Source of the DNA: Amoebophrya sp. A120
Taxonomy: Eukaryota > Protista > Dinoflagellata
Assembly: GCA_905178155.1 (NCBI GenBank)
Contig: CAJINV010000003.1
Coordinates: 3,379,600 to 3,443,599, forward strand
DNA: 64,000 bases
Direction of reading: 5' to 3'
Part shown: one piece after another, positions 3,048 through 60,000 of the stretch
Layout: each line of letters starts with the position of its first letter
How positions within the stretch are numbered: position 1 is the first letter of the stretch
Program-made: the position numbers and the translations under genes
Notes under the pieces: generated by a model
Database searches by the model: none
What the model was told of the DNA's origin: nothing
The model's input: only the letters and a program-made list of their open reading frames with translations

Positions 3048-5717
3048 TCATGTGCCCGACGCAGTAGAGGTGGTGCCGCCGCCGCCGCCGGTGGTTGTGT
3101 AGGACGCGGTCGAGGTATGGAAGAGCACAACTCCCCCTCCTCCTCATTTGTACAGCATGACGGGCAACACAAGCATGAGCAAGAATGCCGGTTTTGCATG
3201 ACAAATTTACACTGGATTATAGTGCTACCTGGGCTACCAGAACTTGTCATGCAAACAGTGTCAAGAGGCAAAGGGTGGATTGGGTATTTTGCATGACAAA
3301 TGAGGGGGAGAAGGAGTTGTGTACTTTCATACGAGGTGGAGGGCAAGCGGGTCGCGCCAATGGAGATTCCCGGGATGTTGAAGCCGGCAGTATCAAAGTG
3401 AAAAAAGCCCCCACCCCATATCGGAAACGAAAGATGCGCGAATTTGTGATGCTGTATTTGAGGCGTGAGGCGGCAATGATCACACTTAGGGGAGGTGGAA
3501 CAGTCAGCAGCCCGAACTCATCGGTTTTGCCAGGTCCACAACCCCCTGGGGGTGAAATACGGGGGTGGCTCCGCGTGGCGGCGATCTAGGATCGCTACCT
3601 GGAAGAAGGAATGGGAGCCTCTTTTCAGAAGTACTCCACAAACCTAAGCCAACCACTGCCCCCGCAGTCACAAACTCACACCCGACATCGAGAACCGATG
3701 CGAGGGAGACCCCGGTAACCCTTCCCTGCGACCGAATACCGAGAGGGATAAGTGGACCCCTCAGTTTAGACGGAAGCAGAGGCATAGTCCCGGAGGGCAC
3801 AAAGTGTACGAATGCTCCCCCTAGTGAAAGCCGGGTCGTTTCAGCACTATGAAACAGGTGTACGATGCAGCACTAGTGTACGATGCTGTATTTGAGTACA
3901 CAAATCGACTTGTATTGCTAGAAGGCCAAGAGACGAAGTTGCGGCCTAAATTGCAGGCAATCTGTCATGCTGTTTCACACTTCCAGTTGCCTCCTGTCAT
4001 CCTGGGGCTGCAAGGCTTTCCCACGCTAGACAGCACTACTGTCCGCATCTTTTGCCTTCTAGCATCACAAAGCTGATTTGTGACCACAAATCTGCATGAC
4101 AGATTTCAGTTTTGATATGGGGAGGGGGCATTTTTCATTGTGATAGGCAGGGGCAGAGAGTTGCTGTGGTGCGGAGCTGGTGGATACGGCGGCTAAGGTA
4201 CCATTCGGCTGAAGCGCATACGTGGTTGTTGTCGACGTCGGGGTAGCTGTTGCTGGTGGCGCCATCGAGGACGCACCCCCCACGTGTGCTGCTGCACCGG
4301 TGGCGGGGGTGGTTGTAACTGTGGCTGCTCCTACTTGGTGCAAACCTTGCGGCGCTGATGCGGCAGAGGATGTGGTCGTTGGGAGGATACCACTCGGCGC
4401 AGTGGCGGCTATTACGCCCGGAGACACCACGACTGGGGGGTTACCAAGGGCCAGTGCCTGTTGCTGCTGGTGTTGGACTGTATGAGTTGCGAAGCTCTTA
4501 CGATTTTTAAAAATAAGAAGGGGACGATGCATCATGATCGATTTCCTGCAGCTACACCTATTGATTTATCATCAGGATCTAAATATCATCTGCTAGGAAG
4601 AATCTGAATCTCAACAATGCAGGATGGATTTTTTTTTCCACTTCTCCTCAAGAACAACGAAAAACGCACACTCGCGGTGATGACCTGCTACCTGCCAGCT
4701 GCATCGCTGCATATTGTTGCCGTAACGCCGCCTGCTGCATATCTGCGGGGCTCAGACTGTAACCGCCGGGGGACGCACCGTAGCCAAGGGGTGGTTGCCG
4801 CTGTCGAAACTCGCGGACTCGCTCTCCAATGTCACTAAAAACCTGCTGTAGACGCACCTGTTTTGTTTATAAAACATCGCTAGATCATGAGCGACAGCAA
4901 CGAGCTTTTTTTTCGGAATCAACCGACACTTCGTGTCTGTGAGAGAGAGGGTGCACCACCACTTCTAATGCAACAATTGAAAGAAAATCCGGTCCTTCCT
5001 CTGCCTCGTCTCATTCAAGTTCTCGTCTTCAAGACGAGTTGTATAGTACTTCTTTATGCATGGCAGTTTTGTAAATGTAAAACTCAGGACCTTGTGCCCG
5101 GGGAGCCACTTGACACTGTTGAAGGCCTCAATGTCTGCCAGCGTGTCTGTGGTAAGCGTTGCGAGGGTTTCCAGAGTATCGTAGCCGGCGTTTGTGAAGT
5201 GGGCCGAAATTTGCGTGGAGATTTTGTGGTGCTTGAAAAAGTGCACCACTTCCTGCCGCTCCTTTTCGAGCTCTGGATCGGCGTTCCAGATGCTTGCAAA
5301 CCCATGCAGATGCTTGCTGTAGTGCTTGCAGAGAAAGTCGACGATGAAGTGAATCGTGTTTTGGGGCTGTTTCTGTTCGATCTCCCGAGCGATGCGCTGA
5401 AAGAGAAGCTGCAGAGCGGAGTTGACGTTTTCCTTCATCTTCATCTTCTGGTACTCGTCGGAATTGGTGCGACCCCGCCGGGAGGCTGGCTCGATCTGGT
5501 GCTCGGCTTGTTCTACCGACGAAAAGTGCTGCACCGCAGGACCATTCCTGTGTGGTATAGGAAGTTTCAGAAAAGTTTCCTCCTGAAGGCGATCTGTAGT
5601 TGTACTTACGGGCATAGAACAAGATACATAGGTGGCAAAGATATCTGCGCGTGCGCACGGCACAAGGAGAGCGCACCATAGTCCTCGTACACGAGAAAAG
5701 GAAAAGTAAAAGACCAC
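3048..5717 (-). CDS. Protein with RIIa/Dpy-30-like dimerisation motif, a SAM-like helical domain and a low-complexity tail; multi-exon, 5' end uncertain
   Basis: VNSALQLLFQRIAREIEQKQPQNTIHFIVDFL resembles RIIa/Dpy-30; ISAHFTNAGYDTLETL...LPGHKV-RLQQ resembles SAM. GT-AG intron 5090..4858. Removing elements 3391-4145 and 3116-3331 (each with one TSD) gives ...LSAPAGFNIPGISIGATRLPSTSTASYTTTGGGGGTTSTASGT-stop at 3048-3050. Confidence 0.7.
3116..3331. mobile_element. TIR introner, family C (216 bp)
   Basis: Ends TATGGAAGAGCACAACTCCCCCTCCTCCTCATTTGT ... ACAAATGAGGGGGAGAAGGAGTTGTGTACTTTCATA. TSD CGAGG at 3111-3115 and 3332-3336. Removal leaves an open frame. Confidence 0.9.
3391..4145. mobile_element. 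TIR introner, family B (755 bp including a nested insertion)
   Basis: Ends TATCAAAGTGAAAAAAGCCCCCACCCCATATC ... GATATGGGGAGGGGGCATTTTTCATTGTGATA. TSD GGCAG at 3386-3390 and 4146-4150. Aligns with the reverse complement of 38971-39265 once 3463-3896 is removed. Confidence 0.92.
3463..3881. mobile_element. 419-bp nested insertion with a 15-bp TSD (SINE or truncated non-LTR retroelement-like)
   Basis: GATGCTGTATTTGAG at 3448-3462 and 3882-3896. The insert is absent at the homologous position of the 38971-39265 copy. The right end has repeated CAGCACTA..GTGTACGATG units. Confidence 0.8.
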
Positions 5718-9609: not shown

Positions 9610-12600
9610 TCATGGACAACGCGTCGACCACGCGGCGTGTCGTGGTGCATTACCCAACACATCACCGCTACTGCAGGTCACGGTGCACGGATTGCCGAGT
9701 GATTGCTCCTGCAATTGCCCAGGAGCTCCTCTAGTGGCTTTATTCTGCTGGTCTTCCATTTTTCTGCTGCCAGAGTTCTTAGTATCGGCCCCCGCCGACC
9801 ACGCTTGCGTTTGCTCATAGTCTTGCAAAAATTCGACCAGACGCCGAGGGCCGTATTTGCGGGCATACTGCAGGGGCTGCATGCGGGGCAGGTTGGAATC
9901 TTGGTGCGGATGAAATGCGTGTAATGGATTCGCCTTGCGCTCCAACAGCAGCCTCAGCATCACGTAATTCTCCGCTTCCACAGCAATGCACCTGAGATGA
10001 AAAAGTCTAGTTTACAATCGATCAACATAAGTATCAACCTCAAGGATCATCATGATGCACTGTTTTAGCTGTGCTTTTTTCATCATTTGCTAGCTAGGCC
10101 ACTTATTCCTCGGGGAACTAGAACTCCGAGATGTTGCTTCACTGCACGACACAGGACGTCTGATATTGAGCGGGATAAATCGAGTCCAACAGGAGAAAAA
10201 TGAAATGCGAATGCCTACAGGCACAGGCGATAAACCAAAACCATTTTTGAAAATCATTAAACTGATTGAGTAAAAATTTATGCTGCTGCTTATGCTTTCT
10301 TACAGTGGGGTCCTTAGTAGGTGACGATCATGGAGCCCGGATGACTGCAGCTCGATATCGCAGCGCTTCACATCCAGCTCGTGCTCCGCGTAAATCTCCA
10401 TGTCACTGTCGGCAAAGGCACGGTCGTGCATATCCCTCCCCGCTGCTAGGTACATCAGTTTGCTCCACCCCGACGGGTCCATCTCCTTTTCGCCCGTCTC
10501 TAGGTATGTCCGGGTGACGAGCGCGGCCCGAGAGGAATGCTCCACGTGCGCATAGTCGCCCGGGAGCTCCCATATGTGCTCGCCTTCCTGTCGAGCGCAC
10601 GGAAGCCAGCCCATGCTCTGCAGCTTCCCTAGCAGATAAAATGCGCGGTCGTTTTCACACTCCTCATCGTTGCACGATGAATCTTCTTCACACGACGAAG
10701 GGACTGGAGTTGTAGAGGTGGTCGCGCTCGATTTTAATACAGCTGTAGTGGTCTGCTCGGTTTTTTCCTCAACGCTTTGGGTTTTTCCAGGTCCAGCAGC
10801 AGCAGGAGCTTGACCACTTCCTGTAGAAGTGTCGCAAGCAATACTAGTTTCTTTTTCTACCACCGAATAGCCCGCACCACTACACGACTGACGATGTTCA
10901 TCATGAGGGAAGTTTTCGTGGCCGAGAGGGTTCTTCTCGAAGAGGTTCTTTTCCTTTGCGGGTTTTTTCCTCGTGGTTAGCAATGCGTAATACGCTCGCC
11001 AGTTTGGCATCGCATGTAAACGCAGTCCCTGCACAAAGGCCTGCTCGCGTTCAAGAAACAACTGTGGCAAGCTCACGTCCTGCAGCTGAAGTTGAAGGTC
11101 GTCCTCACACTGAACAAGTTGTATCCCACAACCGCGCCCTTTTCTCACGACATCTTCCGCGTTTGATGTGTCCAAAGCTGACGGGCCTTCTGCGAGCGAC
11201 GGAGCCGCAGTTGCTTGGCGTAGTACAACTATGAATGTAGTCGCAGGCTCCGCCTGTTGTGTCGACGGGTGTTTATTTTCATCCACAACAAGGATCGCGT
11301 CCTCGCGTTCCCCTTCTCCGTCGCCAATAATTTCGCCTCTTCGTCGCGCAACATCATGCTTCGTCAAGGTGTTGGAGCGGACAAACTCCTCCTTTTGAAA
11401 GTCGAAAGTCTTCGTATTACAATGAAAAATGCCCCCACCCCCGAACTTGGGAGCATTTGTATTGCAAACCTTTCCAAATGAAACATTCGCCCTCTTGCAT
11501 CTATCAGCATCACAGGTTTCCAATCGTGAATGGCAAAGATTTGTATTGCAAAAGACCCGCGCAAGAGCGGCGCTTGTCATGCAAGCGATGCGATACACGA
11601 CTAGACTCTGCATCAGAAAGATTCATACTTGTTTCATGCATGACAAAACGTTTTCATTTGGAAACTTAGCATCACAAATTTTTGCAATTTCAGGGGTGGG
11701 GGGCACTTTTCCCTGTAATACTTCGAGAGATTTTTGGACTCGAAGAAGTCCCTGTCCTCCAGAGAGCGCGGAGACGGGAAGCAAGCGGATTTCATTCCTT
11801 CCAGGGGACTCATTTCCGCCGTAGTAGTTAAGACGCCGTGCTGTTGGCGAGCATTTTCATCATTTTCTATGAAGTTGAGCTGGAGCAGAGCCTTCGCTTC
11901 AACCTCGGGTTGATGTTCTTCGCATGATCGCCGCTTCTGGGCGGCAAGAGGCAGTGCAATGCCCTCGGATGTGAAGCTGCTCACAGGGCCGCCGGATGTG
12001 GTGGTTGAGCCGGGTGACCCAAGTTCTTCTAGTTGTACAGGCAGTTCTTGTAGTGCAAGAACTTGATCCTCAACATGTGGTACCAGTTGCGCAGCAGCTC
12101 CATCTGGTACCGAGTTACTAGGTGCGACAGCGGGGGACGAGGTCCTCGCGGTGTTGCAGTCGCAAGGAAAAGTTTTTTCTTGAAGAAGCGCGTCAACAGT
12201 AGTTTCTCCTGCGGTCGTCCCCGTCGCACAGCGGCCGCTCTTACCGTTGTACGACCCGTCTGGCGAAAATGCGAGGTGTAGTGGGTGACTCGGGAGTTGT
12301 TCGTCCTCTTCGTCGGATTCAGATGCTGGAGCTGCGGGCGGCGCTGTTTCCTCGGAGGAAGCTCCGCCGTATCTTCGAGGTAGCGTCGGGCTGTCAACGA
12401 CGCCGCTTCCCGCTTTGACACTCAACGTCGTGCCTTCATCCTCGGCCAGGCCGCTCTGAACGAGGTAAGCCTTTGTGCAACCCGTAGTTGAGGCCGTTTC
12501 CGGGCGAGAGGTGGACAACCGCGCAGGCGCAAGAAGATGGTGCTTGTCATGATTGATGTGTTCAAGATCAGGGCCCTGCTTTGCATCGCCTTCTCCATCA

Positions 12601-16400: not shown

Positions 16401-19400
16401 GTGTTGCTGTTGAGAGGTGGCCACAGGTGGCGGGGTTTTCTTTGCTGTCTGTAGGTTTCTGCTCATCTTCCCGGACAGTAGTTTGGGTTTTCGTTCCTTC
16501 ATTTTGACGACCAGCGAATAGATTTTGATGATGATAATGATGGTCGACACGGAATTTGTCCGCTTGCTTGCTTGACGATTTGTCGACTGCGCCGATGATC
16601 ATGTCGCCATCAGCTGGGACGAAGTGGCGTGAGGACGCGGCCGCTCCAGGTGCAACTGCGTGCTGTGCCAGTTGCGCGCCGCTCATCTTCATTTTGTGAT
16701 TTTTCTCGTGGACGAGGCCCGCACTTCTACTAGTTGTACAACTGCTCGCGCTGCCAGCACTGCATTTATTTGCAATTATGCTGCTTGCTCCATCCTCGTT
16801 CGCTGTCAGGAGTCCGCCCTCAACCCGATTCACTTCTTTCAGATGTTGCGGCACCTCCGTCTGCAATTCTAGCTCTAGGTGGCGACTGCTCACACCTTTC
16901 CCCCGGCCTGCATTCCAGTTTTTCGCTGCTGTGCCATTACGCTCGAAGATCGAGGAGGCAGGTGGCGACTGATGCCCTGACACCGAGGACGCGGATGCCT
17001 GACGGCCACGGCCACCCTTGTTTGTAGTGTCGTGCGCCGATTCGATTGATGGCCTACTTGTTGTGTTTGACGGTTCTTCGTTCTTCTGTTCATTTTCAGA
17101 TGATGCAGATGAGCATGTTGCAGGTCCTGTCTTTTCGCTCTCGTGCACTGCAGCAAAGGCGCTAGCCGCATCTACTCCAGGCCGGTACTTATATCCATTG
17201 GACCGATTCCGATTCCTCGTCTGCGCGTCTACCGCACGGAGCGAAGCGCGGCCTTTCCCGTCGTTCGGTCTCCCCAGCAACGTTTTGTGCCATGGACTTG
17301 GCGCACTGATGGTGAAGTTTCAATCTCTATTTGTTTTTTTTGGTCGCGAGTCGAAACACCAAATGAAGATTTGATTTTCTGAACAGTTCAATCACGAATA
17401 ACAGTAGATGCATGATGAAAATATTCCTCAGAAAGTAGAGTGAGAAGTTGATGCACCAAGCCATACCTTCCTGAAAGTCCCTCGCTGGAAGCGATTGTAG
17501 CCCCGGATCCTCCCTTTGCGCCACGTTTGTTCACTTTGGTCTCCCTCTCCGCTTGATGTTCGTTATCGTTGTCCTCCACGGAACTACGTGCAGACGCGGT
17601 TGTGAAATAAGGTTGCCCAGATACCAAGAAGGCGGTGTGGTCGGCTTCGTACTGAGTTCTTCTTGTAGAGGAAGACGACTGCTCCTGCTCGATGGGCTCC
17701 TCTTGATGAGGAGGCGCAGGGCTGCGAGCGTCTGAAGCTTTGTGCACCGTGCTGGCGCCACCTGCTCGTATCTTATCCACGGTAGACGAAGGAGCCTCCA
17801 CCGATGCAGCGACGCGTGGAAAAATCGTCGTCGACGTAGCCGATGCTGCAGGCCGACAATGAGGATCACCGGAAGAAGTGGTGCCTGCAAGGCCGGTTGC
17901 TGCGCACGACTGCCTTCCTGTACCACGTGCTGCCAGATGCGCGGGAGTTGCAGCAGCATGAACGTCGACATTTTTCCGATTGTCTCCCCGGTATCGAATG
18001 CAAGAATGTCATGAGGGTCTGGAATATTGCAACTTGCGATGCGCAGTGTGGACTAGACAAAACTCTGTCTTGCATGATAGGCACCAAAAATGACCTTACA
18101 CTTTTTCTCACTAACTACAGGCTACGCATGAAAACGCCTGCATCGCGGATCTTGTCATGACCAGGCTGTGCGTGCATTTCAGACTTTGACCTTGTTCTTG
18201 CAGGCCCAGAAGATGCAGGATACGTGTGTAGACCTCCCAGACATTTAATTTGCATTCCATAGCCGGACAGAGGACCGCGGGAACCTGCAAGCGGAGGCGG
18301 CCGCCGCTGGTGCTCCGTATCGGTGAGCCAGCTGTTGTGCCCCTGGGGCGAAATCAGCATTCTCGTCGGGGCCCCTTCGGCGCTGCGCATCTTCGTTTTG
18401 CGTCTCGTCGGTGCTGCGCATCTGATCTGGAATTTGGTCCTCCGAGGAGGGGCCGCCGTCGGTCAGTGTAGCCGCACAATTAGAACGCGGCTTCTGAAAA
18501 TGGTCTCGCGTTATGCTCAAAAGGGACGGAGGCGGTAGTTGCCCGTAGTTCACATGTTGAACACCATGTGTCTGGGGGTACAAGGACATCCTGATTGATG
18601 AATCAGCAGGGAAATTGCGATATAATTGGGAAGAAGCACTTGTTCTTTTTGTGTTGGTCCTCGTGTCATCCTGCCGCGCATCCTCTACTACTTCTTCGTG
18701 GTGCTGGTGTCTGCCTGAAGATAGGGACGTAGAAGTATTCATCTGGTAGCTTCCTCGCTGCTGGTTTTGACGTCCGGCGGTCCGGGGCGGGTCGGGGTGG
18801 CGGGAGCTGTCGCTTTGATACTGAAAAGGATGCTCATGAGTTTGGACGTTGTAGTAGTCCTGCTGGTCTCGGTCTCGTACCCCATACGAATTCTGCTGGG
18901 CAGTGTAGTGAGCATTGAGAAAAGCACTGGCACTTTCTCGGAATATTAAACGACTCGCCTCCGCAGCCGGTCGTGTGGAACAGGTATCGGCACCCACGAC
19001 CACGGCCTCCGTATGATCCGAGAAGCTGCCGGGACGACCATTTGGCATTGCAGGGTCAATAAAACCTCCTGTAACTACATCACCCGACAACTGTTGATGA
19101 TTTCCATTTGTTCCCAGAGCAGGAGCCCTCACCAGGACATTCGCACGTGATCGATCGACAAGGTCATCATGGCTGTACGGATCTTGCTTATAGCTGCGCC
19201 CGCTTCGAGTTCGATTGACAGAAGAGGCGGCCGCACCATGATCGCCAGTCTGAGCAGGACCCTGAGAACTACAAATGGACGCATTTTTCGTAACCCTCAG
19301 GCTTTCAACGAAGTCCTGGTCATCTGCTTCCTTCTCCGCGGCCTCATTGACACCATCGTACTTGTGTTTCACTCCGCCACGGTTTAGAAAATCGTAGTCC

Positions 19401-19534
19401 GGCGGCATGTTCCGAAGCTGGTCGTCTAGCAGGACCGATATCACACAGAAAAAAGCTAGTACCGCACCATAGAAATCTTCATGTGTACTGAATACAAATA
19501 GCACTGCGAACGAAAAATGGAAAAAATTCGCCAC
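13438..19534 (-). CDS. Very large His/Gln/Ser/Pro-rich low-complexity protein, multi-exon, function unknown
   Basis: Four long minus ORFs (18245..19534, ~17388..17990, 15376..17280, 13438..15234) join in frame through element 17992-18261 (SSVR-GDNRK) and two GT-AG introns (~17465..17310 and ~15401..15265). Confidence 0.7.
17992..18261. mobile_element. Degenerate TIR introner, family A-like (270 bp)
   Basis: Ends TATCGAATGCAAGAATGTCATGAGGGTCTGGAA ... CCCAGACATTTAATTTGCATTCCATA. Flanks CCCGG / GCCGG (4 of 5 match). Removing 275 bp restores the frame. Confidence 0.82.
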
Positions 19535-19665
19535 GGGCGAGCGCGGCTCAGCATGCTGTCTAGGAGACTGCGCATTATACCCATAGCACCCTTTGGCGTG
19601 TATTTATTGTTGCGCGTCGCAAGTAGTGACACTAGTACTTGAAGTACAACCATGACATACTAGTG

Positions 19666-22600
19666 CTACTTGGCTTCCTTCTGCGGCATAACCGATGCGC
19701 TGCCCCGGTCTCGGTTTCGTTTGCTCATGGCCTGCAAGCTCCTTTTGTGCTGCTGCTGCCCTAGCCAACACATCTGGTCAACAGAAGCTGGATGATACGT
19801 TTTTGCCCCGGGTATCAAAGACCTCCTTGATGTTGCAGAATTCCTACCAAAATTACTGCTGGTCGTGCTACTTTGGTATTGGTGATGAAGCAGGTTTTTG
19901 ACGCCTTCACCATTGTGCCATTCCACTTTGAAGATGTTCTTCACTGCTTCGCTGCGCTGACCACTGCTTATTTGTTGAGAAGTGGAAAAAGAAGCACCGT
20001 TCTTGTAGGCACAGTGATTTTTGCTAGTATTTGGACCACCACCTCCCGCTGTCCCTGTTGTGGCGTTCGCCTGTTGCGGCGGCTCATAGGGTGCTCGTGC
20101 TTCTCCTCTGTCGGAATTGTGATAGTACAACTCATGTTGAGTGGTCTTTTTCGTGTTCGAGGCAGAGGTACTATTATTTCTAGTTTTCTTACTGCCTTTG
20201 GCGTTTGTTCCGTGAGAAGTTGCAAAGCTCTGTGTTCCTGCCGCCGCTGATGCGCTGCACGTGGTAGAAGTGTGTTGACCACCAGTAGTATGAGTTTTTG
20301 ATGATCTGCTGCTGGGGCGACAAGAGCCTCTAGTACCTCCGGCCGTCTCTACTCTGGAGGTGGTCATGGGGCGCTCGTCGACAGCTTTTGGATCATCTGG
20401 CAGCTGCCCGGGAGCAGCGGAAGGAGCGTGTAGTTGGCGGACACCAGCATGCTGTTCCTGATCCACCCCGTGGCCGTCAACAACATGCGGAAATGTAGTA
20501 GAACTAGAACTTGTGTAGTTTTTCGCCCGGCGAGAGGCAGAGCTGTGAGAAGTCCTCTCCTCGTCGTCATCGCCAGGCACGTGGTCCTCGTGGTCCTCCT
20601 CGTCGTCCTCGGCCTCGTTCACGTTCCGAAAGCGCGTCACACGCTTTGCTTTTCGATTTTTGCTTGTTTGCTGTGCCACGGTGCGAGAAGATGAATGCGC
20701 ACTAGAAGTTTCTTGTTCATGATCCCTCGACGTCCAGCTCGCCGATCCAGGGATGTGGTGCTGGCTTGTTTCAACAGCAGCTGCAGCTTTGCTTTGATGA
20801 TTCCCGGTAGAAGTTGTGGCAGCGGTAGCGGACGTTTTAGTAGATACTAACAGCTGGTGTTCCACATCTACTCGGCTGCGAGAATCTACTTCCGAGTTTA
20901 GCTGGTAATTTTTTCCCACAGTAGGAGATGGATTCATTTCATGTGGTGTCGGCCGCTGTTCCGGTTCATCGGGCCGGCCGCGAGGTTTCTTCTCATCTCT
21001 TGGAAGAGTTGGAAGGTCCTCAGGACGATTATGATTCATCGTGGTCAACATCATCTCCCGTGGCGCAGAAATATTTGTGGTAATCTGGACACAATCGGTG
21101 GTACCAGTTCGGTCCATAATTCCAAACGCCGAAGATGTGCTGCGTGCGGACTTGCGATGGTTGTGGTCGTTTTTCCACTCATCGTCGTGATGCCCATGTT
21201 GATCAACATCGGCAGGAGCACTACTTCTCCCGGTGGTGTAGTGACCGACGCTCTGAATAGTCACACCGTAGTCGGTATCCGCTGCAAAAGTTGTATCGCA
21301 CTCTAAGAAGTACTAATTGCACAGTACTGCATGCTGCGTGCTTTCTTTGATGAATCCACATCACACATTGCACTTTTTTTCCTTCTGGAGCTGTTTGTAA
21401 ATTATAGAGTCTCATGTAGTTGTTGTATTCTTGCAATTCTAGTTCTGAATGCGATACTTACTTTTGCATTGCCTAGTCGTCGTACAACACTTGCTCCTGC
21501 TCGGACTTTGTCTTGTTCAAGTAGGTATCAGCGGTGCCCTTGTTCCTAGCTTTATTTCCGGACGACGAACAAGATGTCGTCCATGTTACATCCTTGTGAT
21601 CCTTCGGGTAGTTCGTGTAAGGGTTCGGCGTCGCATGCGACGAAGTACTATTATTTGTACGTGATGTGTTGCTGCTTCGCGGAATATTTTTATGGTCGTA
21701 AGTGCTCATCGCCAGTTTGTTTTCATTTTCACCGCGTTTGGAGGCAGTGGTGGTCCTCGTGAGTTCGTGTTCTGGTGCGCCGTGCTTCTTTTTTTCTCGA
21801 TCACGACGGGAAGAGGTTCTTGTAGAAGTTGTCTTACTAGCCTCCAACAGCTCCACAGCAGGTTGTACTACACCAGCATCCTCCATCCACTCCACCTCTC
21901 GGTTGTACTGATGTCGCGCGCTCCTCCTGGTGTATTCTTCAGTTGATGCGTGACCCGGAGGACGACGGTGCTCAACCACGACGTGGCCTTCGTCTACAAT
22001 ATCGGTGTAAGTTGAAGCTCTACTTCCGACGATTTCATCGTAACGGTTCCCGAGAAGTGCTTTATTTCGCAGAGCAGGAGAACTTTTCCTGGGCGCGGCG
22101 TTGTGGTCTACTCCCGAGAATGTTGCCCTCCTAGCCTTGGCGTGCCGGTCTTCTCCTTCTTGTTGCGCACCACCAGCACCTTCATCGCCGTCGTCCTCAG
22201 GTGGTTCGTCTGTGGCGCCTGCTCCTGCGCACAACTCATCGGCGACGTACTTGTTGGAGGAGCTGTTGTGCTTATGTTGCAGCCGGGTTGTACTTGTATT
22301 ATGAGCCGTCGCGTCCTTTTTGGGGCCGTTCCCGTTGGCAAGATAAATATTATGGTCACCATGACGATTGCTTCCGGCAGACCTGCAAGTAGATGAGCTT
22401 GGGTTTGGTCGTGAAGCGGCCGACTCATGATCCCACTCTACCCGAGCAGAATCATGGGATCCCGATTTATTTGCTGCGACCGGTCGTGAAATGTTACGCG
22501 TTGCATTTCCCGAAGCAGAAGACCACGAGTTGGAGGAAAATGATGAAGACGCGGGATTGTTCTTTTTGCTCCCAGGAGCGCGCCGACGACTTTTAATATT

Positions 22601-24309: not shown

Positions 24310-24794
24310 GAATATAGTAACAGGGAACCTCGACGTGACCGGGGGGGTCACGTCCATCCGTCCGGCCGGACGGACGGCACGTGACCGGGGGTAGTCCGGC
24401 CTCGGGGCGAGTTCGGCGCTGAATGCCGCAGCAACTTTGGCCCTCGGTAGCTAGAAGCCCCCGGCCGCGTCACCGACGGCGGACCAGGGGCAAGAGTCGT
24501 GCCTTTTTCCGTGAAAGACCGAACTCATGACCTTTTTTTTTTTAGTTGGGCGCCCGAGCTAGCTTACAGCCCCCGGCCGCGTGACCGGGGGCGGAGCGTG
24601 ACGAAGAGAGGCAGTTCTTCAGTGAAGGACCGAGCTCATGACCTTTTTTTTTTTTTTTAGTTGCCCGGGCGCGCATTCCACCGCGGCCACCACCTCCCAG
24701 CGCCACGACCGACCCCCGGTCACGTGCCGTCCGTCCGGCCGGCCGGACGGACGTGACCCCCCCGGTCACGTCTAGATTCCTTGTTACCCTATTC
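24310..24794. mobile_element. GC-rich MITE with ~83-bp TIRs and TTA TSD (PIF/Harbinger, Tourist-like), 485 bp
   Basis: The left end GAATATAGTAACAGGGAACCTCGACGTGACCGGGGGGGTCACGTCC...GTGACCGGGGGT matches the reverse complement of ~24712-24794. TTA at 24307-24309 and 24795-24797. Confidence 0.85.
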
Positions 24795-26158: not shown

Positions 26159-26767
26159 TCACCGCGACGATAAGCTTGTTCTCCGGGTGCTTCTTCCGGA
26201 TTCCTTTTGATTTGTCTCAGCGACACCCGTGAGGCTTTTCCCGTAGTCCTTTGAGAAGAAGGTGTTCAGGTAGTACAGTGGGCCGCGAATCTGCGTGCTC
26301 AAGCAGGTTTCGCCTGCCAGTTCGGCGCCGCCGTTCGGCAAGGGTATGGATGTGTCAGAATCGAAATTCGCAAAATCAAAAAATTTGTGATGCGTAAAAT
26401 CTAGGGCACGGAAGGCCTGTATTGGGGAACAGGCAAAATAAGAGGCCGATTGTAAGCCTGTTTGGGGGTATAAAATACGCTGCGAGAGTAGCATGACAGG
26501 AGCAGTCTTCTTTCCCCAAACAGCATGACAGACTGGATTTTGGTGCTCCCGAAATTTGTCATGCGACACTTGAAACCTGAGGCGCCAACTGACATCGATT
26601 TTGTGCATCACAAATTTTTCCATTTTGTCAATTTCGATTCTGGCACTCCCATAAAGGGGCCGGGAACTTTACAATCCAATCCTTTTCGCGACTCGTCCCA
26701 AATTTGCTCGGTCCACAGCCGGATCGCCGCTGCGTTTTCCTCGACAATTTTGTCCCGTTGCTCGATT
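26159..26767 (-). CDS. Coding exon(s) interrupted by an introner; part of the upstream kinase gene or a separate small gene
   Basis: Removing 26345-26653 plus one TSD gives IEQRDKIVEENAAAIRLWTEQIWDESRKGLDCKVPGP-LPNGGAELAGETCLSTQIRGPLYYLNTFFSKDY with no stop. Confidence 0.55.
26345..26653. mobile_element. TIR introner, family D (309 bp)
   Basis: Ends TATGGATGTGTCAGAATCGAAATT ... AATTTCGATTCTGGCACTCCCATA (imperfect TIR of ~50 bp). TSD AAGGG at 26340-26344 and 26654-26658. Shares GAGGCCGATTGTAAGCCTGTTTGGGG with 59516-59822. Confidence 0.92.
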
Positions 26768-27013
26768 TATGCAAGAACGCAAGTATGTAGTCCTCAGGGT
26801 CAGTAGTCATGTTGAAACGTTGTGTTCTTTCACAAAGGTTTTTTAAACAATGATAAGGGCGTGGAAGTGTGCTGTCGAGGCTTCACGACCATAGTTGTAT
26901 TCTATTTAATTTTAGCACCCGGAAGGAGCAAAATTACATTTTTCATCTTGGCATGCGTTGCACTTCTTCTCTTTTCAATGATGACACCACTGTCGAAGTA
27001 CTAGCTGGTGCAG

Positions 27014-31024: not shown

Positions 31025-31296
31025 GTCAAGAAAAAAAAACAATCAAATCATGTCAATCCAAATGCAAGAATTGCACGATAGCGGTTTTGTTTTCCTGGTT
31101 CAAGAACTTGCTATATAGTATGAATGAAGTGAGTTCCGGGATGGCTCGGCAGTGAATGCGCGATGTCCACCAGAAGATACTCAGCCTAAATATTCCGTTG
31201 CGCGTACTTACATACTACTCATGTTTTTGACTATACCGCTCACTGTTTTGCAACTGCCGTGCCACTTTAGCGGCACTGCCGGCATTAAATACGTAT

Positions 31297-37467: not shown

Positions 37468-37497
<30 letters not shown>
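37468..37497. repeat. (GAT)10 microsatellite
   Basis: Ten perfect GAT units just upstream of the 37452 ATG. Confidence 0.95.
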
Positions 37498-38401: not shown

Positions 38402-41248
38402 CTAAACGTCGTTTTTGAATCTGATAGTGTCTGAATCCAATCCCACCGTGTCCCGGAGGTCCAAAGGGTCGACGGAAACCCAACCGTCTGAGCTTAGCGT
38501 CGTCGTCGATGTCGGTGCGGCTGAGGCTGGAGATTTTCCGCCCTGACGTGCGTCGGGACGAAACATCTGGGCCTTTTTGGACGACGACCCTTTCATCGCC
38601 TTGCCTTTTTGTTCATCTTGTTCTCGCCCTCGTCTACTCACGCCAGCTTTTCCGCCCGTGATCGCGCCGCCGGTAGTTTTGCTCCCCTCCTTGTTGCCCA
38701 CCTTTGCGGCTGCAGCGTCCGACGTGGCAGAATCTTCCCTGGCACCAGTTGCTGCATCAGAGTTGTCCTCGATCAGTCTCCTACGCATTTTGATATCGAT
38801 CGCAATTTTAGGTTGACGCAGGTGATGCGGAGTGGTACTACTATCGTGGGACTGAATTTGATGGCCGCCGTCGAGTCTTCCGCCTTCATCCCCGCTCTCG
38901 TCCACTTCAGACTCTGCGGCGCTCTGTAGGAGCTCGGGATCGTAGTCGGGCCTGAACTCGCGGATGTCCGTATCGAAAGGGAAAATCCCCCCTCCCCATA
39001 TCAAAGCGGAATGTTGTCACGAATCAGCTTTGTCATGCTACACGGGAAAAGATGCGGACTGTAGTGCTGGGTGGCGTGGGGGAGCCTTGCATCTTCAGCA
39101 TGATAGGAGGCAGCTGAGAGTGGGAAACAGCATGACAAATTGCCTGCAAACGAGACCACGACTGCGGCTCTTGGCCTTCTAGCATGACAAGTCGATTTGG
39201 TACCTCAAATCCTCCATCACAGATTTCCATTTCGATATGGGGAGGGGGGATTTTTCTGTTTGATAGTCCGCCACCCCTTCTGACGTCTCGTTCGGGATCC
39301 ACCAGACGGGGGCACGTTTCTTGATTTTCAGGACCTTTTTGTACGGACGCTTGGAGTACGTGGGAGCCTGGATCATCTGCAGTTCCTCCTTGGTCACCGT
39401 TCCGTCGACCGGCACGATGTACACAGCGGGCGTGCGTCCGCCAATGCTCGCACGAACATTCCCATGGAAGGTCCGGACGTCGGCCACCGGAGCAGGCTTG
39501 ATAATATTCGGTCCTCGCTGTTGAGGTCCACCGGACGTTGCAGGAGTTGTTGGCCCTATAGAGTTCGATGACGCGGTAGTTGCCGACTCGGCTCCGGGAG
39601 GTGTTTTTGACCTGTTTTGCCCATGCTTTTCCGCCAGCACTGAGAGTGCCGGCTGCATCCCGGTGTTGCCGATGATGGCAGTTTTTTTCTTCTGGGCCGC
39701 ACGCTCTCGCGCGCTGCGATAATTTTCGTCGTTCGCTTGTACTTCTCCTTCATCATCAGACGGAGCCTCTAGCTCAAAGCTTGCCTTTGACCGCAACTTC
39801 GGTTTCTGGCTGGCGTTCATCACATGAGTAAGAGTATTAATATTATACCCAGCCACAGCAAGATCCTGTTCCTGCAGCTCACGCTCGGCGTCCCCATTTA
39901 TAATTTTCCCGGTCGCCCCCGTGGAGTTATTGTTCATAGAAGGAGCGCCATTTATTTTCCCGTCTTGCGCAGCGCGCGCATCGATGTTGTGCTTCACGAA
40001 GTACATGATGCATCGGGTGACCAGGCGCGGGTACTCCATGTGCATTTGGTGCGTGCACCCGGAGATGACCCCGATGTCTCCGAGGTAACTGGCACCCTGT
40101 TTATCCATCCAGTCGTCGTCACCGAAAAACGAAATCAACGGGACGCCCTCCAAGTCCACGCGCTCGATGAGCGGCAACTCCGCCTTGTTGGTCAGGAACC
40201 GACCGAAAACGGCGAACAGGGAGCTTTCGGTGCCCGGGCTTGCGTCGTAGTTGATGCCAACCAAGTAGTCCACGAGCGCGTCGAACTCCGCCTCCGGCGG
40301 CGGGGTCGCGAACCGCGTCCGCACCCACGAACGAAAAAAGTAACCACCCCAGCTGCCCATCCCCTTCACAATCTGACTCGGGCCGCCGCTGCTGCTCATA
40401 CCGTCGAACAATGCCTCGATCATCTGCTCCTTGTAGCCCTTTTCGCTCTCTTTCGGCATGCGGGTTTTCGGAAACCCGAAACAGGGACTCAGCAAGATCA
40501 GGCCGGCCAACCGGTCTTTCACGGTGTTCGCGAACGCGGTCGAAATGTATCCACCGAAGCTATGCGCCACCAGAACGAATTTCTCGTACGTTTTATTGTT
40601 GTTGCCGGTCCGACCCTTTTTATTCTTGTTGTTTCCTCTACTAGTACTTTTGGACGTGGTTGATGTTGCCTGTGCAGCTGGGCCAGCACCTCCGCGCAGC
40701 GGTCCTTGGTTCTTACTACTTTCCGCGCTTTCACCCTCGCCCTGGAGGGACGATGCTGGCATTTTCGGGATTACCCCTGCTCGGTCATCACTTCCGGGTT
40801 GTACACCTACTCCGGGGTAGGCATCGCCATTCTCCGCCGCATCCTCGTCCCCGGGCTCCTGCTTCCACGGGATGACGGAATCTAGCCAAAAGCGGAGTCG
40901 CTTGATGAAAAAGTGCTCCACGTCCTCGGGCGACTCAAAGTGGCGCTCCTTCCGCATGCTGCAACCCATGCCGGGCAGGTCCAAAAAGTAGATGGGTCCG
41001 CTCCACCGCTCGACCATGAACTTCATGATGCGGTAGTAGACACCCACCCCGCCGCCATAGCCATGTATGACCACGAGCGGCAATCCGTTCCCTATCTCCC
41101 CACGCCCCTCACACTGGGCGTAGTGAATGCTTTCCTGCGCCCGCGGCAGCAACAGGTCGCGCACTTTCACCGGAACCCGAGCATGTTCCAACAATCGCCG
41201 CTCGATCTCCTGCAGATCCTCGGTGGGCTTCGACTCTTCCGCCCCCAT
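38402..41248 (-). CDS. Alpha/beta-hydrolase, ABHD4/ABHD5-like, copy 1; may have further 3' exons
   Basis: LVVIHGYGGG, YFLDLPGMGCS, FVLVAHSFGGY (nucleophile elbow), LILLSP, FFGDDDWMD, THQMHME. Joined across 38971-39265 as EGVAD-IREFRPDYD. Confidence 0.88.
38971..39265. mobile_element. TIR introner, family B (295 bp)
   Basis: Ends TATCGAAAGGGAAAATCCCCCCTCCCCATATC ... GATATGGGGAGGGGGGATTTTTCTGTTTGATA. TSD GTCCG at 38966-38970 and 39266-39270. Absent from the paralog at ~42455. Confidence 0.95.
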
Positions 41249-52572: not shown

Positions 52573-55500
52573 CTACTCGGGGTCCTCGTCGTCCCAGATT
52601 GGGGTAACCATGTCATCGGCCGGATGATTCCGATCGCGATCCTCGTTTATCATCTGTTCGTTTCCATCTTGATAAGAATTGTAGTGACTATCCGATTCTT
52701 CCGTAGTACCAGAATTATCTTCCGCGCCGTGTTGTAAACACTGTTCGTCCAAGTTGACGGGGCTTGGTTGCTCCGCTAGCTCGATCAAGAAAATGACTCT
52801 TCTCTGTTCGCGGAAGACGTAGTCGTAATTGTCAAAGTCTTCGTAGTAGAGGATCTGGTCCACGGAGGTGTAGTGAAAATTCAAATTGCGCCACGACCCC
52901 TTCGGAAAGTAGGTATCGTAAGGGAGGTGTTGCGGGTCGAATTGTACCTGGTCTGGCAGCAGGACCTCGCGGACCTGTAACCCGTTTTTCTTGCAGTTCT
53001 CCAGGAAAGTCTTGTCGAGCAAGGAGTAGCGATGCAGCGTGTGCGCGTACACAAATTGGTTCCACTGGGGGTCGCCGCCCGGAAGATCCCACTTGTAGTT
53101 CTCCGCCAACATCTTGGACACGATTTTGGGAAAGTATGCGAGTGCGCAAGTGCCCCTCTCCGCGCCCACGCCAAAGTTGTACTCTTGCAAAAAGAAACGG
53201 ACAGAAACGGCAGTGACTTCCACACGATGCAGCTACTTCGGCATGACATCATGTACCGATGAGTGTCATGCTCATGCGGTGTGGCTCCTCGTTCACTTGT
53301 AGATTCTCCATGACCTCCTACAAATCTACGTCGCACAGTGCTACTACAGCTGCATGTCAACGGGATCGGTTTATCTACGAAAGCTAAAGGGCATCAGAAG
53401 ATTCCTAGTGCTGGTGAGATTGGGCGAGGGGTTCTTGTGCACTTTGATAGAAGCCATTCCGCTCCGATGTCGTTGTAGACTAAATCGCTTCCGATCAACA
53501 GCAAATCGAACTTTTCGCTGTGCGACTTGTCGACTTCGAAATGATCCTCGAGAATCTTGGAAATCGGAATGCGCTTATCGTAATCTTCTTTCCAATCCAA
53601 TGGCATTGTGCCAAGTATTCCGTCCCACGGTGCGATTGGCAGCAAGGTGCCGCTCGCATCTTTGTCGCTCGTCGTGTTCTTCCCGTCGTCATCTGTATAT
53701 CATAATGTACTAGACACTGGACCATCCATTCTATTGTGGCTTGGTTTTTCTCTTATCAACATGGTGAACAGTACACGAAAACAAAGCAGGCAAGCAACTC
53801 TAAATTGCTCAATGAATTGTACATCTGTACTAAAATGTGTGAAACTTTGACTTTCGTCTTTCAGCCAAAAGCGAATTCGTATACCTGACCCGAGTGGAGT
53901 AGGAGTTGATGGAGCCGATTGAAACTCGAGATCGTGTTCTTGCTCATCTTCAAAAGACCCACTGCCTACCGGAAACATCTGTTCTGCCGATCCTCCATCC
54001 TTGTTGTTACCTAAGAGAAGACAAGTTCTTTCCCATTCTCATAGATACTTCCAAATCCAATGTCAACGAACAATGATGTAATGGTTTTTCTTTTATTTTC
54101 GAAAAATGCACCTCCTTTAGTCTGGAGTCCCACTAGTACACAAAATCACAATCATCAGAAAAGTGCTAGAAAGAAAGTAGTGAGAAAGTTGTACCTTGTT
54201 GATACGCGTCCAAGTCTATCCGTGGAACGTGTGTGAAATGCTTCTTGTGGCGAGCCACGTTGTGCGCCAGCCAATTAAACGCGGCGCCATGCTGTTCGGA
54301 TGCTATTACGTGCCAGTGTTTCTTCATGGTGTTCTATCAAATGCAAAAATGTCTGGGTCTGGAAGGATGCAAGGTTTGTCATGCACATTTTGCATGACTC
54401 ACTCCTGACGTCTGAGATGCATGCCCTAGCATCACAGATCTTTCGAGGGCTTTCTGATGCCTATACCGCACGAGAAATGCCCTCTCGCCGTGGCCAAAGC
54501 CAGGTCTCTTTTGCTGTTCATGCAATACAGATTTTTGGATAATGCAGACGCAGCATCACAAGTTGCATTCTTCCAGACCCAGACATTTTTACATTTGATA
54601 TGTTCTTATGCAGCCGCCGCAGCCAATACTGCTGCGCTTCCTCCGGGGTCGGGTCTTTAATCCGGTAATCCGGTTTCTTTAATCCGTAGGTCACTCCTGG
54701 AGCAAAAGGCATCTCGCGGCTCGCGACAACGCGTTGCAGTTGATGAGACAGATTCAAGGCCAGCCAGCCAGTGCCGGAACCCAGTTCGACGACCACCGTG
54801 TTCCGGACCGGATCATGTTCGTCCCTTTGAGTCATGTCTTGCTGCTGCAGTGTTTTCAAATGTTCACGGACACCTAACCAGTCGAAAGCCGTCATCAAAA
54901 ACCGGTGGAGCACCCGGGCAATCGGCCAGGTATGTCCACCCGTCGTGGTAAGGCCCGTGTTTTCCACCTCGAGCAGGCACATCTCCAGATCAGGCGCACC
55001 GGGCACGCGGCGCCAATACGCGGTGTCGCGGAGGTGCTCCGACTCGGACATTTTGTGATGTTTTGGCAACTGTTTCAGTGCTGCCGTACTGCGGCTCTTC
55101 TTATCATTTTTTGTAGTTGTACTCGAAGGACCAATACTAGCCTGCGCGTGCCCTGGAGTGGAGTCGAAATGTTGTGTATTGGTTGCTTTGCCATCTTCTA
55201 GTACATCTTCGTGACGACCGATAGCGGAACTAGCAGTCGTGCTGGGCGACGGTGGTTTATTTTCGCCAGATGCGTACTTACGGTTCTTTTCCGATGCAGC
55301 TAAGGTTAAATCTTCGTCCACATCATCTTCATCGTCACTGAGCCGGGGAAGAAGCAGAACTTGTTGGTGGGTTTTCTTTTTGGAAATAGCGGAGTCCTGA
55401 TCTTTCAACATCTCTCCCAGTGCAAACGATGTCGTCGTTCTCTTCATTTTTGAGAGCGAGCGACCTTGTAGTTCAACGGGCTCTGCAGCGCCGGAGTGCG

Positions 55501-57000: not shown

Positions 57001-60000
57001 TCAAGCGAATGCGTATTCGAGAGAGGGATCGACCTCAGGATCGTGCGGGGCGGAGTAGATTTCGAGCGGGAACGGTGCGATTGGGACCCAGAAAGGCTCC
57101 CCCTCTGGCTCGTGCCGCGTTCCGCGCACGAACTGCATGGCCCCGCTGAATCGCCCTTTGTGGCCCGGGATGTCCCCCGTGCGTGACTGGTAGGCGCACT
57201 CCCCGGGAACAAAATAGACCGGCTTTGACGGGGCGGCGAACGCGAGGAAATCCATGAAGTCGTTCTGCCCCATCCCCATGCCCATTTGCACGGGGTTCCG
57301 CCCTACGTCGTTGCGACTGGTTTTGGGGTACCGTGTCTTCCACTCCTCGTCCGCATACTCGTCGTAAAAGTTCGAAAACTCGGATCCGTTCGAATGGCGA
57401 TCCTCCAAGTGCCGGGAGTCTGTGTGGTACTGGTCGTTTGGGTCCGAGCTCCGGCACAGAAGGTGCCCCCCATCCACAAGCAGCGGATACAAGCCAATCA
57501 CAGCGGCGCCCACCACCGGCGTCCCGGGCATATTCACGTACGTATCCGTTTCCTCGTCGTACCGCTGAATCACGATCCTGAAATCGATTTGAAGTTGGAG
57601 ACTCGGTGTTGTACAATAAAAACAGTAGTAGAACAGTAGAGACCACTCAACGCGGTCAATTCATGGCCAGCCCTTTCAACAAGTACAAGCTGATAGATAA
57701 TCATAATATGCAGCCTTCAAAAATCTATGGTCGCATGTTGCCATGGAATGTAACTAGTAACAGGTACTTTCTCTGCAGGAGCTGGCAGCATTTGAATCCG
57801 CGTTCGGCCTCCGTGCCAGTTAGTGAGAAGCGGACCGAGTATGCGAATCCGCTGGGCGCGGCCCCACCGTGTCCGTTGCGGCCAAGCCACAGCCCAGAGG
57901 CGTCGATCTTGACGAAGTTGGTGGTGCTAGAGCTGCAGAGCGGTCCCCTGTCGGGAAATAGCGAAATCCCGCATCCGATTTTCGGACCCAGGACGTCCGG
58001 CCATACTGACTTGTAGCTGTAGATGCCGTTTTCCAAGCGATAGGCATACTCGTGAATCCACTCCAGCAAGGGCACCCGGAAGTCCGCGTTGAGCGCGATA
58101 AAACTGTCTTCCTCCGTTCCTAAAGGCCTGGTGGTCAGCTTATTTTTGGTCGCAGAAGATGAAACGTCCTCAGCCAGTCCTTGTTGTTTCGAACCGTCTG
58201 AGGTGGATATAACTAGCCCAGAAGACGATGCGGATGAAGATGATGCCGCTCCAGACGGACAAGCCACACAGGCGCTCTCAATGTCTACATTGCTCGCGGT
58301 GCTGGCACTAGCCGCATCGATGCTCATCTTGGTGTTATTTCCGAGTGCGTCCACTTTATTTGGGTCAACGTCCTCCCCGATTTCTCCCCTTTGCCGCTTT
58401 CTGAACAATTCCAGCTTGGGAAGTTCCTTTGTCACGACACAACGCGGAAAGCCACGCTGCACGTCTTGGGGGTTACACCCGATGTTGAAGCAATCCACGG
58501 AGGTGGCTGGGTCCAACGAAAGCGCGGTCCCGCGCAGGAAAATCTCGTTCTTGCGGTCGTCCAGCGTGCACTGCCGGTTCGCGGCGTAGCACTGAAAATC
58601 CCGCGACTTCTGGTTCATCGGGTTTCCCGGATTGAAGCTTTTCACGTTCAGGTGGCCGCCGGAGATAATCTCGTGGTACGCCACTACCGTGCCAAACACG
58701 CCCTTCATTTCGTACCACCAGTCTGCGCCGACGCGGCACCGGTGCGCGTTGGGCCCGATTACATTTATCCGCAACAGCTGCTCGTCCTCTTCCCGTTCCT
58801 CCGCCGTGGCCGCCTCGTCGTACGCAGCGGCGCAAGCTTCGTACAGTTCGCTCATTTGCCCGCCGAGCAGGAAGAAAAAGTCCACCACGGCGGACTTGCA
58901 GACCTGCGTCGCGATGCTGTCTGCGGACGACCGGGTGGTTTGTGAGTTATTTGTTCTCACAGCGGTTGCGTGGGCAAGGCGGGACTGGTGGAACGCTTCG
59001 TTGAGCTTTTTCCGGTGCAGCGCACCCTGGCTGCGCATCATGGTCTTACGAAGTGCCCTTGGCAAGGCCCGCATGAAACGGGCGGCGGCTAGGATGGAAG
59101 ACAAGTGCAGCCGCCGGTTCCTGCTCTCTGCGGGGCTGGTTGGATCTCGTTGGTACGAAAAAAATAGCTGATCGTAGTCCGCCTTCTCGTATCAAATGCA
59201 AATATGTCTGGGTCTGGAAGAGTGCATGTTTGTCATGCTTTCCTGGCATGACACTTCAATCTGTCATGCACGCTAATCAAGAGCCTCATTTTGCTGTCAC
59301 GCAGAAACGCAGTTTGTCATGCAGAGTAGGCAACACCTAGAAGCTCAAAAGCTTGTCATGCTGAGCCAGCACTTGTGGCCTCTTCACGATACGCCACCCA
59401 GCATCACAAGTTTCCAGACCCAGACATTTTTACATTTGATATCTCGAGAAAGAGGTGTCTGGACAAGCAATGTCGCAAGCGCCGGTATGTCGCGTAACAA
59501 GTCTTGCTGTTGCTGTATGGAAGCGTCAGGTTTGAAATCGTCAAAGTTGAAATAATTTGTAATGCATAAAATGCATGACCCGAGGTACGTGTGTTGCAGA
59601 GCAGGCAAGTGAGGCCGATTGTAAGCCTGTTTGGGGTTACAGCTCGAGCTGCTAAAGTAGCATGATAAAATCGCTCTTCTTTGCCTAAACAGCATGACAA
59701 ACTGGATTTAAGGGCCACCAAGATTTGTCATGCGCCACTTGGAAACTGGGTTCCAACTGGCATCCATATCATGCATGACAAATTATTTCAACTTTGTCGA
59801 TTTCAACTCTGACACATCCATATGCTGCTCCCATCAGATTTCTGATCGTTAGCGTTCTCGTAGCGACGCAGTGCTTCATCCAAATCTGGCGTCTGCAGGA
59901 TCGTTGATATTTTCTTTTTGCTTTTCATGATCATGGGGATGGAATAGGAATAGAAAGCGGTAAATGCATTTTTTACAGAGGAAGATGAAGATCCCGGCGA

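What the first reader, a model, noticed from the sequence alone, without database searches (positions are those of the whole stretch)
3111..59827. No canonical splice sites and both orientations: removal may be guided by the TIR hairpin
Seen: sense-strand TSDs are CCTCG, CTGCC, CGAAG, CCGGC/CCGGG, CCCTT, AATGT, GTGCG/CTTCG, AGACG, CAGCC/CTCCC, CGGAC, GAACA, CGAGA and CAGCA. Sliding the junction across each TSD never gives GT-AG or GC-AG, and the only constant terminal dinucleotide is the element's own TA. Family A1 copies at 27140 and 59190 are inverted relative to each other, as are family B copies at 3391 and 38971, although all hosts are minus-strand genes. Inference: the only invariant, orientation-independent signal is the paired TIR stem, which would bring the two TSDs together. 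This suggests structure-defined splicing (modified spliceosome or an endonuclease/ligase route, as proposed for euglenid non-conventional introns). DNA-level excision is an alternative.
Basis: partly seen in the sequence, partly recalled or inferred. Interest (0 to 1): 0.82.

Follow-up and report, generated by a model that had tools for sequence, protein, structure and literature searches.

The report
Amoebophrya transposon introns outlive their hairpin
These are the already published hairpin-ended transposon introns of the marine parasite Amoebophrya A120: contigs from probable RNA libraries lack them exactly, in either orientation and without GT-AG ends, and one copy whose tips are predicted not to pair is still cut exactly, so the end letters and a fixed spacing, likely read by a relaxed spliceosome, probably matter more than the hairpin tip.

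Summary
The window is Amoebophrya sp. A120 DNA. None has a GT/GC-AG reading at element+5. Both named pairs are inverted. Contigs from probable RNA runs skip exactly element+5 nt at 7 of 9 elements in the region laid, including the inverted pair 27579/27877, while DNA-like contigs keep them. The class, and the idea that a hairpin joins the exons, are published (Farhat 2021); this scan has reported the system many times on other DNA of this genome. Element 26768-27105 has no predicted terminal stem (first helix 17/21 nt inside) yet is cut at +5 nt and skips an in-frame GT...AG 3 nt away. Decayed repeats confine a single cut register to 0, -1 or -2; -1 matches the GTA[C/T] donors here. Most likely: a relaxed spliceosome reads the end letters and a fixed spacing, with the stem as helper. 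Chemistry untested.

The parts
2770..3028 (-).
   Evidence: no RNA laid
3116..3331 (-). TIR element, repeat CCTCG
   Evidence: no RNA laid
3391..4145 (-). TIR element, family B, repeat CTGCC; carries a nested 434-nt piece with a 15-nt direct repeat; opposite to 38971
   Evidence: no RNA laid
11415..11720 (-). TIR element, repeat CGAAG; removal joins a 747-codon frame
   Evidence: no RNA laid
17992..18261 (-). TIR element, repeats CCGGC/CCGGG; the one site here that would separate register 0 (Arg) from -1 or less (Gly)
   Evidence: laid but not bridged
19439..19690 (-).
   Evidence: present in DNA-like contig; no RNA cover
26345..26653 (-). TIR element, repeat CCCTT; 314 nt skipped
   Evidence: X1, X2, X4; P0001
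26768..27105 (-).
   Evidence: P0001; inside one DNA-like contig
27140..27394 (-). TIR element, family A1, repeat AATGT; 260 nt skipped
   Evidence: P0001
27579..27836 (-). TIR element, repeats GTGCG/CTTCG; 263 nt skipped; opposite to 27877
27877..28149 (-). TIR element, repeat AGACG; 278 nt skipped; opposite to 27579 and 54335
29096..29507 (-). Partly decayed element, repeats CAGCC/CTCCC; 417 nt skipped; limits the register to 0, -1, -2
31606..31868 (-).
   Evidence: (X1, X2)
38971..39265 (-). TIR element, family B, repeat CGGAC, in an alpha/beta-hydrolase gene; the tandem paralog lacks it at the same place
   Evidence: one X4 contig piece ends at 38965, the repeat's edge (other side not listed)
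53135..53449 (-).
   Evidence: no RNA laid
54335..54600 (-). TIR element, repeat GAACA, in a methyltransferase-like gene (weak Pfam hit, E 0.0017)
   Evidence: no RNA laid
59190..59441 (-). TIR element, family A1, repeat CGAGA; opposite to 27140; removal joins 111+488 codons
   Evidence: no RNA laid; protein search found nothing
59516..59822 (-). TIR element, repeat CAGCA; same family and orientation as 26345
   Evidence: no RNA laid
26162..34012 (-). Host gene of P0001 (1626 aa, 'unnamed protein product [Amoebophrya sp. A120]'): 7 element introns and 2 GT-AG introns
30985..31409 (-). Canonical intron, 425 nt, GTATTT...ACAG
32083..32487 (-). Canonical intron, 405 nt, GTACTG...TAAG

Best explanation
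These are non-autonomous TIR-transposon insertions in Amoebophrya A120 exons that are absent from probable RNA contigs as exactly element+5 nt, likely spliced by a relaxed spliceosome that reads the element's own end letters and a fixed spacing rather than G...AG or the tip of the hairpin. Shown: insertion with a 5-bp duplication; exact removal in both orientations without GT/GC-AG; retention in DNA-like contigs; exact removal of a copy with no predicted terminal stem. Inferred: (1) one register for all copies, which this window limits to 0/+5, -1/+4 or -2/+3; (2) that it is -1/+4, so that the donor reads N-T-A-T like the GTA[C/T] donors of this window's canonical introns, with the first base free; (3) that the 3' cut is counted from the invariant AT near the element's end (its A would be at -7 and is a candidate branch A); (4) that the stem, terminal or subterminal, only brings the ends near. 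Orientation does not matter because TAT...ATA reads the same on both strands.
For: Joints skip 314, 343, 260, 263, 278, 417 and 268 nt, element+5 in 7 of 7 observed, in X1 and X2 (7 of 7) and X4 (6 of 7), 2 samples of 1 study; the same contigs skip two GT-AG introns and have no depth over 21492-25159, as spliced RNA would. The X4 contig's 352 unlisted letters equal the five-element arithmetic exactly, and the transcript-based annotation P0001 has the same nine joins. 26768-27105: end duplex no better than shuffled (z 0.2), P(TAT:ATA paired)=0 and first helix 17/21 nt inside at all four flank lengths; TAT...ATA at that spacing arises by chance in 0.07% of 343-nt intervals. Repeats are decayed in 4 of the 7, yet the length is unchanged, so repeat homology does not set the cut. 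Canonical donors here are GTACTG, GTATTT, GTATGG. Farhat Table S4: all 9 'predominant' A120 non-canonical ends begin N-T and all 9 for A25 begin TT. A120 keeps U2, U4, U5, U6 and 83 of 89 spliceosomal proteins searched; U1 not found. Precedent: Fritillaria splices non-canonical introns with altered U2AF and snRNA marks (PMC13326754, abstract).
Against: No lariat, circle or end-chemistry data exist here. The register -1 is not proven by this window: 17992, the only site that separates 0 from -1, was not bridged and no junction-spanning protein was found; I took -1/+4 as a lead from earlier scan notes. How Farhat placed junctions within repeats is not stated in the sections read, so Table S4 may be biased. 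All 18 elements keep some end-to-end pairing: 17 strongly (z -3.5 to -15) and 26768 subterminally (duplex p 0.047 at 40 nt, 0.013 at 60 nt), so pairing may still be required. The case against the terminal stem rests on one element and on predicted folds. Only 1 of 3 canonical introns here has A at -7, which does not support a shared fixed branch position. In young copies the proposed donor and branch letters are predicted to be paired and would need unwinding. Five of the seven element joints are flagged 'between: not known', with short sides of 25-36 nt in some runs; X3 showed 0 of 9 joints. The runs are 'RNA?' by guess.
Confidence: 0.55

Rival explanations
1. Structure-defined removal: the paired TIRs set the cut sites, read by a separate endonuclease/ligase or a structure-binding spliceosome adaptor, as proposed for euglenid nonconventional introns.
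For: 17 of 18 elements have significant end-to-end duplexes; the 18th keeps a subterminal stem; first and last intron bases are free; U1 snRNA not found in A120; an in-frame AG is ignored at 26768. Euglenid introns pair their ends and leave as circles without lariats (PMC11282704 section 6).
Against: The stem base lies 0/0, 4/4, 2-3/7-8 or 17/21 nt from the element ends among the seven removed copies, yet the cut length stays element+5. Orientation independence does not favour structure over sequence. The invariant letters can be set in canonical donor register. Even in Euglena the defined signal is a sequence motif plus spacer (PMC12501133 abstract and section 7).
Confidence: 0.27
2. The joins are reverse-transcriptase jumps across hairpins between short direct repeats, not splicing.
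For: Hairpin plus direct repeat is the known substrate of such artefacts (PMC8240250, search listing and start of abstract only); all RNA evidence here is short-read contigs.
Against: All seven must go for the 1626-codon frame; retained copies carry stops or shift the frame. Exact element+5 removal holds where only 2-3 letters of repeat slide remain and where no terminal stem is predicted.
Confidence: 0.04
3. The elements are excised from DNA in a life stage before transcription, as ciliate IES are.
For: They are TIR/TSD transposon-like, with TA-starting ends; removal leaves one repeat.
Against: X5 (unlabelled, flat depth 26-29 over genes and spacers) has contigs running unbroken, with no other letters, through 19439, 26768, 29096 and 31606, and entering the young copies from both flanks. 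None of the 15 listed joints (of 301) is a flank-to-flank skip. Limits: X5 may be the source of the assembly, contigs drop rare alleles, one stage only.
Confidence: 0.05

Closest known systems
Introner elements / non-canonical introns of Amoebophrya sp. A120 (Farhat et al. 2021, PMC7789003; read: abstract, sections 10-12, 16, 25, passages of 17 and 32, supplement parts 2-3; figures not seen)
   Same: Same organism. IR begins TAT, seven looser bases, then As; direct repeats of 3-5 nt at the borders; no GT-AG; RNA-seq support; hairpin said to allow 'the joining of exon boundaries'; MITE-like; alternative splicing mechanism suggested.
   Different: The sections read give no cut register, no orientation analysis (supplement hits for 'orientation' concern genes) and no test with decayed copies. 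Fig. 3 logos and Figs S19-S25 were not visible and may already show the register.
Euglenid nonconventional introns (PMC11282704 section 6; PMC12501133 abstract and section 7)
   Same: No GT-AG, paired ends, repeats at borders, probable MITE origin, unknown machinery, coexist with GT-AG introns.
   Different: Signature there is N3-CDG ... CH'G-N5-6|R and excised introns are circles; here it is TAT...AT[A/C] with 5 nt in all outside the element, and products are unknown. Different lineage.
Fritillaria borealis non-canonical introns (PMC11282704 section 6; PMC13326754 abstract)
   Same: TIR/TSD transposon-derived introns without GT-AG, removed by a modified spliceosome.
   Different: Preferred ends AG-AC/AG-AT, U1 retained, duplicated U2AF; here terminal bases are free and U1 was not found.
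Introners that co-opt splice sites from TSD/TIR (Gozashti et al. 2022, PMC9860276; 2025, PMC12130899; passages)
   Same: Non-autonomous DNA transposons making seamless introns; A120 named as rich in TIR introners; opposite-orientation copies are allowed for in the 2022 search method.
   Different: Those shown end up with recognisable donor and acceptor dinucleotides; these do not.

Membership tests
Amoebophrya A120 introner elements | Genome is Amoebophrya A120 | tested here: met
   Exon 28154-29089 is 100% identical to a protein named Amoebophrya sp. A120, whose ten pieces map to the window
Amoebophrya A120 introner elements | Inverted repeats at both ends starting with TAT, then A-rich | tested here: met
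   34 of 34 arms in 17 elements begin TAT, positions 11-15 mostly A; 31606 has one ATC end; 26768 lacks terminal pairing
Amoebophrya A120 introner elements | Direct repeats of 3-5 nt at the exon/intron borders | tested here: met
   12 of 18 perfect 5-mers, 6 with 1-2 mismatches
Amoebophrya A120 introner elements | Removed from transcripts at non-GT-AG junctions | tested here: met
   7 of 9 elements in the region; 2 uncovered; 38971 one side only; 8 never laid
Amoebophrya A120 introner elements | Repeated in the genome | tested here: met
   Families within the window at 70-89% identity; many other-locus contigs pile on the young copies
MITE (non-autonomous TIR DNA transposon) | TIR, fixed-length TSD, empty site | tested here: met
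   the tandem paralog aligns without gaps over 68 nt across the 38971 site
MITE (non-autonomous TIR DNA transposon) | Cognate transposase | not tested
   No genome held; earlier scan notes propose a hAT-like master, unchecked by me
U2-type spliceosomal intron | GT/GC-AG ends | tested here: not met
   0 of 18; available GT...AG ignored at 26768
U2-type spliceosomal intron | Donor +2 T, +3 A in register | tested here: inconclusive
   Met 18 of 18 if the register is -1; window allows 0, -1, -2
U2-type spliceosomal intron | Lariat with branch A; snRNP dependence | not testable with these tools
   No raw reads of this strain's genes (X9, X10 hit only TIRs)
Euglenid nonconventional intron | N3-CDG ... 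CH'G-N5-6|R signature | tested here: not met
   Invariant columns are TAT and AT[A/C] (signature)
Euglenid nonconventional intron | Ends brought together by pairing | tested here: met
   Predicted in 17 of 18 terminally, 1 subterminally
Euglenid nonconventional intron | Excised as full-length circles | not testable with these tools
   No suitable RNA data

The most novel reading that the evidence does not exclude
A120 runs a second, non-spliceosomal splicing route (an endonuclease/ligase or a transposase-derived factor) that finds TAT...ATA ends held near by any internal stem, measures 5 nt and joins exons without a lariat, making every new transposon copy a perfect intron in either orientation.
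Probability: 0.2. Interest if true: 0.88.

Novelty: already known. Interest (0 to 1): 0.36.

Why it matters
About 65% of RNA-supported A120 introns are non-canonical (Table S4) and how they are removed is open in the papers read. A rule of 'end letters plus 5 nt, terminal bases free, either orientation' would explain why these transposons can saturate exons at no coding cost, and turns the question into simple tests (where is the branch, does stem or sequence matter). This window adds one natural mutant, 26768-27105, that separates terminal pairing from end sequence and offers a built-in GT...AG competitor. The class, the hairpin proposal and (within this scan) the register are not new.

Tried and rejected
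No whole genome is held, so no genome-wide count. X9 and X10 (raw RNA reads, same species label) laid 133 and 2 reads, all partial and on element ends; they do not cover these genes and say nothing on splicing. No run listed was on record as RNA holder; X1-X4 are RNA by guess. 17992 and 19439 had no bridging contig. Junction-spanning proteins were not found for the 59190 gene (266-849 aa only) or the 17992 gene (684-2000 aa only; one search returned a single-exon 323-aa fragment and one weak unrelated hit), so A1 copy 59190, B copy 3391 and register 0 vs -1 remain untested. Nearby in-frame GT/GC...AG alternatives exist for 9 of 16 elements (29096 mis-indexed by one base there, corrected from then on); for 27877, the one of these with RNA, the alternative is not used. 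A PWM of element arms did not recognise the 26768 arms (top 11-15% of 1162 TAT sites, below all member arms), so its origin as an introner rests on the TAT...ATA+5 geometry and partial repeat. No strand bias at TIR position 4 (C9 G8 T1 at the 5' arm). A fixed -7 branch A is not seen in canonical introns (1 of 3). 8595-10033 dropped as a chance hit. Rfam: no match in the window. Pfam: 4 of 26 frames hit; no transposase.

Full report
Identity. The window is eukaryotic, 50% GC, with long minus-strand frames. Exon 28154-29089 is 100% identical to a 1626-aa protein named 'unnamed protein product [Amoebophrya sp. A120]', which maps in ten pieces to 34012-26162. No whole genome was available.

The observation. 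I count 18 elements: five more are 2770, 19439 and 53135 (scans), and 26768 and 31606 (found from contig length and the annotation). Sliding never gives GT/GC-AG (0 of 18), but that is expected by chance about half the time for 13 elements: it shows no requirement, not avoidance. The inverted pairs are real: 27140 vs 59190 and 2770, 3391 vs 38971, 27877 vs 27579 and 54335. The tandem alpha/beta-hydrolase paralog at 42326-45238 aligns without gaps across the 38971 site, an empty site that confirms insertion with a 5-bp duplication.

Are they removed, and where? Two read-laying runs were possible. In 17300-33000, contigs of runs guessed to be RNA show nine joints: two GT-AG introns (425, 405 nt) and seven elements (314, 343, 260, 263, 278, 417, 268 nt), each element+5. 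X1 and X2 show 9 of 9, X4 8 of 9, X3 none; this is 2 samples of 1 study. The other two elements in the region (17992, 19439) had no bridging contig. Short exons of 28-36 nt leave five joints flagged 'between: not known', but the X4 contig's unlisted 352 letters match the arithmetic exactly and P0001, from a transcript-based annotation, has the same joins (the 27140 join was mapped in 34 and mis-framed in 37). The DNA-like run X5 keeps the elements: contigs pass unbroken through 19439, 26768, 29096 and 31606 at depth 26-27 and enter the young copies from both sides. X5 may be the assembly's source and contigs hide rare alleles, so stage-specific excision is unlikely, not excluded.

What sets the cut? 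That does not follow: a TIR makes the end sequence identical in both orientations too, and TAT (18 of 18) and AT[A/C] (18 of 18) are invariant (16 of these were ascertained by their ends, 2 were not). A cut at the stem base would leave both repeats; the removed length is always element+5, also in four copies whose repeats have diverged, so neither a symmetric stem cut nor repeat homology explains it. If one register serves all, the diverged repeats limit it to 0/+5, -1/+4 or -2/+3. Element 26768-27105 is the informative case: its 25-nt ends pair no better than shuffles, TAT:ATA pairing probability is 0 and the first helix lies 17 and 21 nt inside, yet 343 nt are removed, and an in-frame GT...AG reading of 346 nt is not used. 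It keeps a subterminal stem (p 0.01-0.05), so pairing may still help or be needed to bring the ends near; it cannot be the ruler. 31606 (3' ATC, helix from 4/4) and 29096 (helix from 2-3/7-8 with flanks) point the same way. This rests on predicted folds and mainly one element.

Mechanism. In the -1/+4 register the intron starts N-T-A-T, like this window's canonical donors GTACTG, GTATTT and GTATGG (the third from a loose end), with the first base free (G5 C5 A4 T4). Farhat's Table S4 lists N-T starts for all nine predominant A120 ends and TT for all nine in A25, whose repeats start TTA; how junctions were placed inside repeats is not given in what I read. A120 keeps U2, U4, U5, U6 and nearly all spliceosomal proteins; U1 was not found. 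I therefore favour a relaxed spliceosome that reads +2 to +4 and counts the 3' cut from the AT near the element's end (0.55), over a stem-defined or non-spliceosomal route (0.27), DNA excision (0.05) and RT artefact (0.04). The -1/+4 register came to me from earlier scan notes; this window agrees with it but cannot prove it, because 17992 was not bridged and protein searches failed. The branch-A idea is inference; only 1 of 3 canonical introns has A at -7.

Comparison. The elements meet every tested feature of the A120 introner elements of Farhat 2021, which already says the hairpin allows joining of exon boundaries and calls for another splicing mechanism. They work like euglenid nonconventional introns in lacking GT-AG and pairing their ends, but lack the Euglena signature. 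Fritillaria gives a precedent for a modified spliceosome on TIR/TSD introns. Symmetric introns with TIRs but canonical sites are known in fungi (PMC8469720, abstract). Searches for Amoebophrya with splicing, introner, U1 snRNA or lariat listed no study of lariats or circles in Amoebophrya; the library lacks most subscription papers (Roy 2023 not read), and Farhat's figures were not visible. This scan has noted the system in 228 of 238 notes on this genome that fit my words.

Verdict. New here: seven RNA-level joins in one gene and a stem-decayed copy that makes stem versus sequence directly testable. Interest 0.36.

Noticed in passing
   Followed up: partly
window 3448-3896: Nested 434-nt insertion inside element 3391, bounded by a perfect 15-nt direct repeat and ending in short 18-nt repeats, as a non-LTR retroelement might; without it the element is 321 nt.
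   Followed up: partly
all elements: Internal motif GCATGAC/GTCATGC is shared across families: 24 of 27 and 22 of 24 occurrences lie in elements that make up 8.3% of the window; candidate transposase-binding or splicing-factor site.
   Followed up: partly
window 38402-41251 and 42326-45238: Tandem alpha/beta-hydrolase paralogs; only the first carries an element.
   Followed up: yes
window 27363-27394 and 27915-27960: Raw RNA reads of X9 match only element ends with other flanks, so a population not covering these genes transcribes a related element unspliced.
   Followed up: no
window 17306-17466: Canonical intron GTATGG...ATCAG, seen as a loose end of an X4 contig; links the 17992 gene to the frame at 15376-17319.
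   Followed up: partly
window 48169-50730: 853-codon minus-strand frame rich in Ala/Glu/Lys repeats, coiled-coil-like, no Pfam hit.
   Followed up: no
window 54335-54600 and 59190-59441: Family A arms carry GT or GC eight bases inside the sense 5' end; at 54335 a GT...AG of the same length as element+5 exists but would give a different mRNA; no RNA laid.
   Followed up: no
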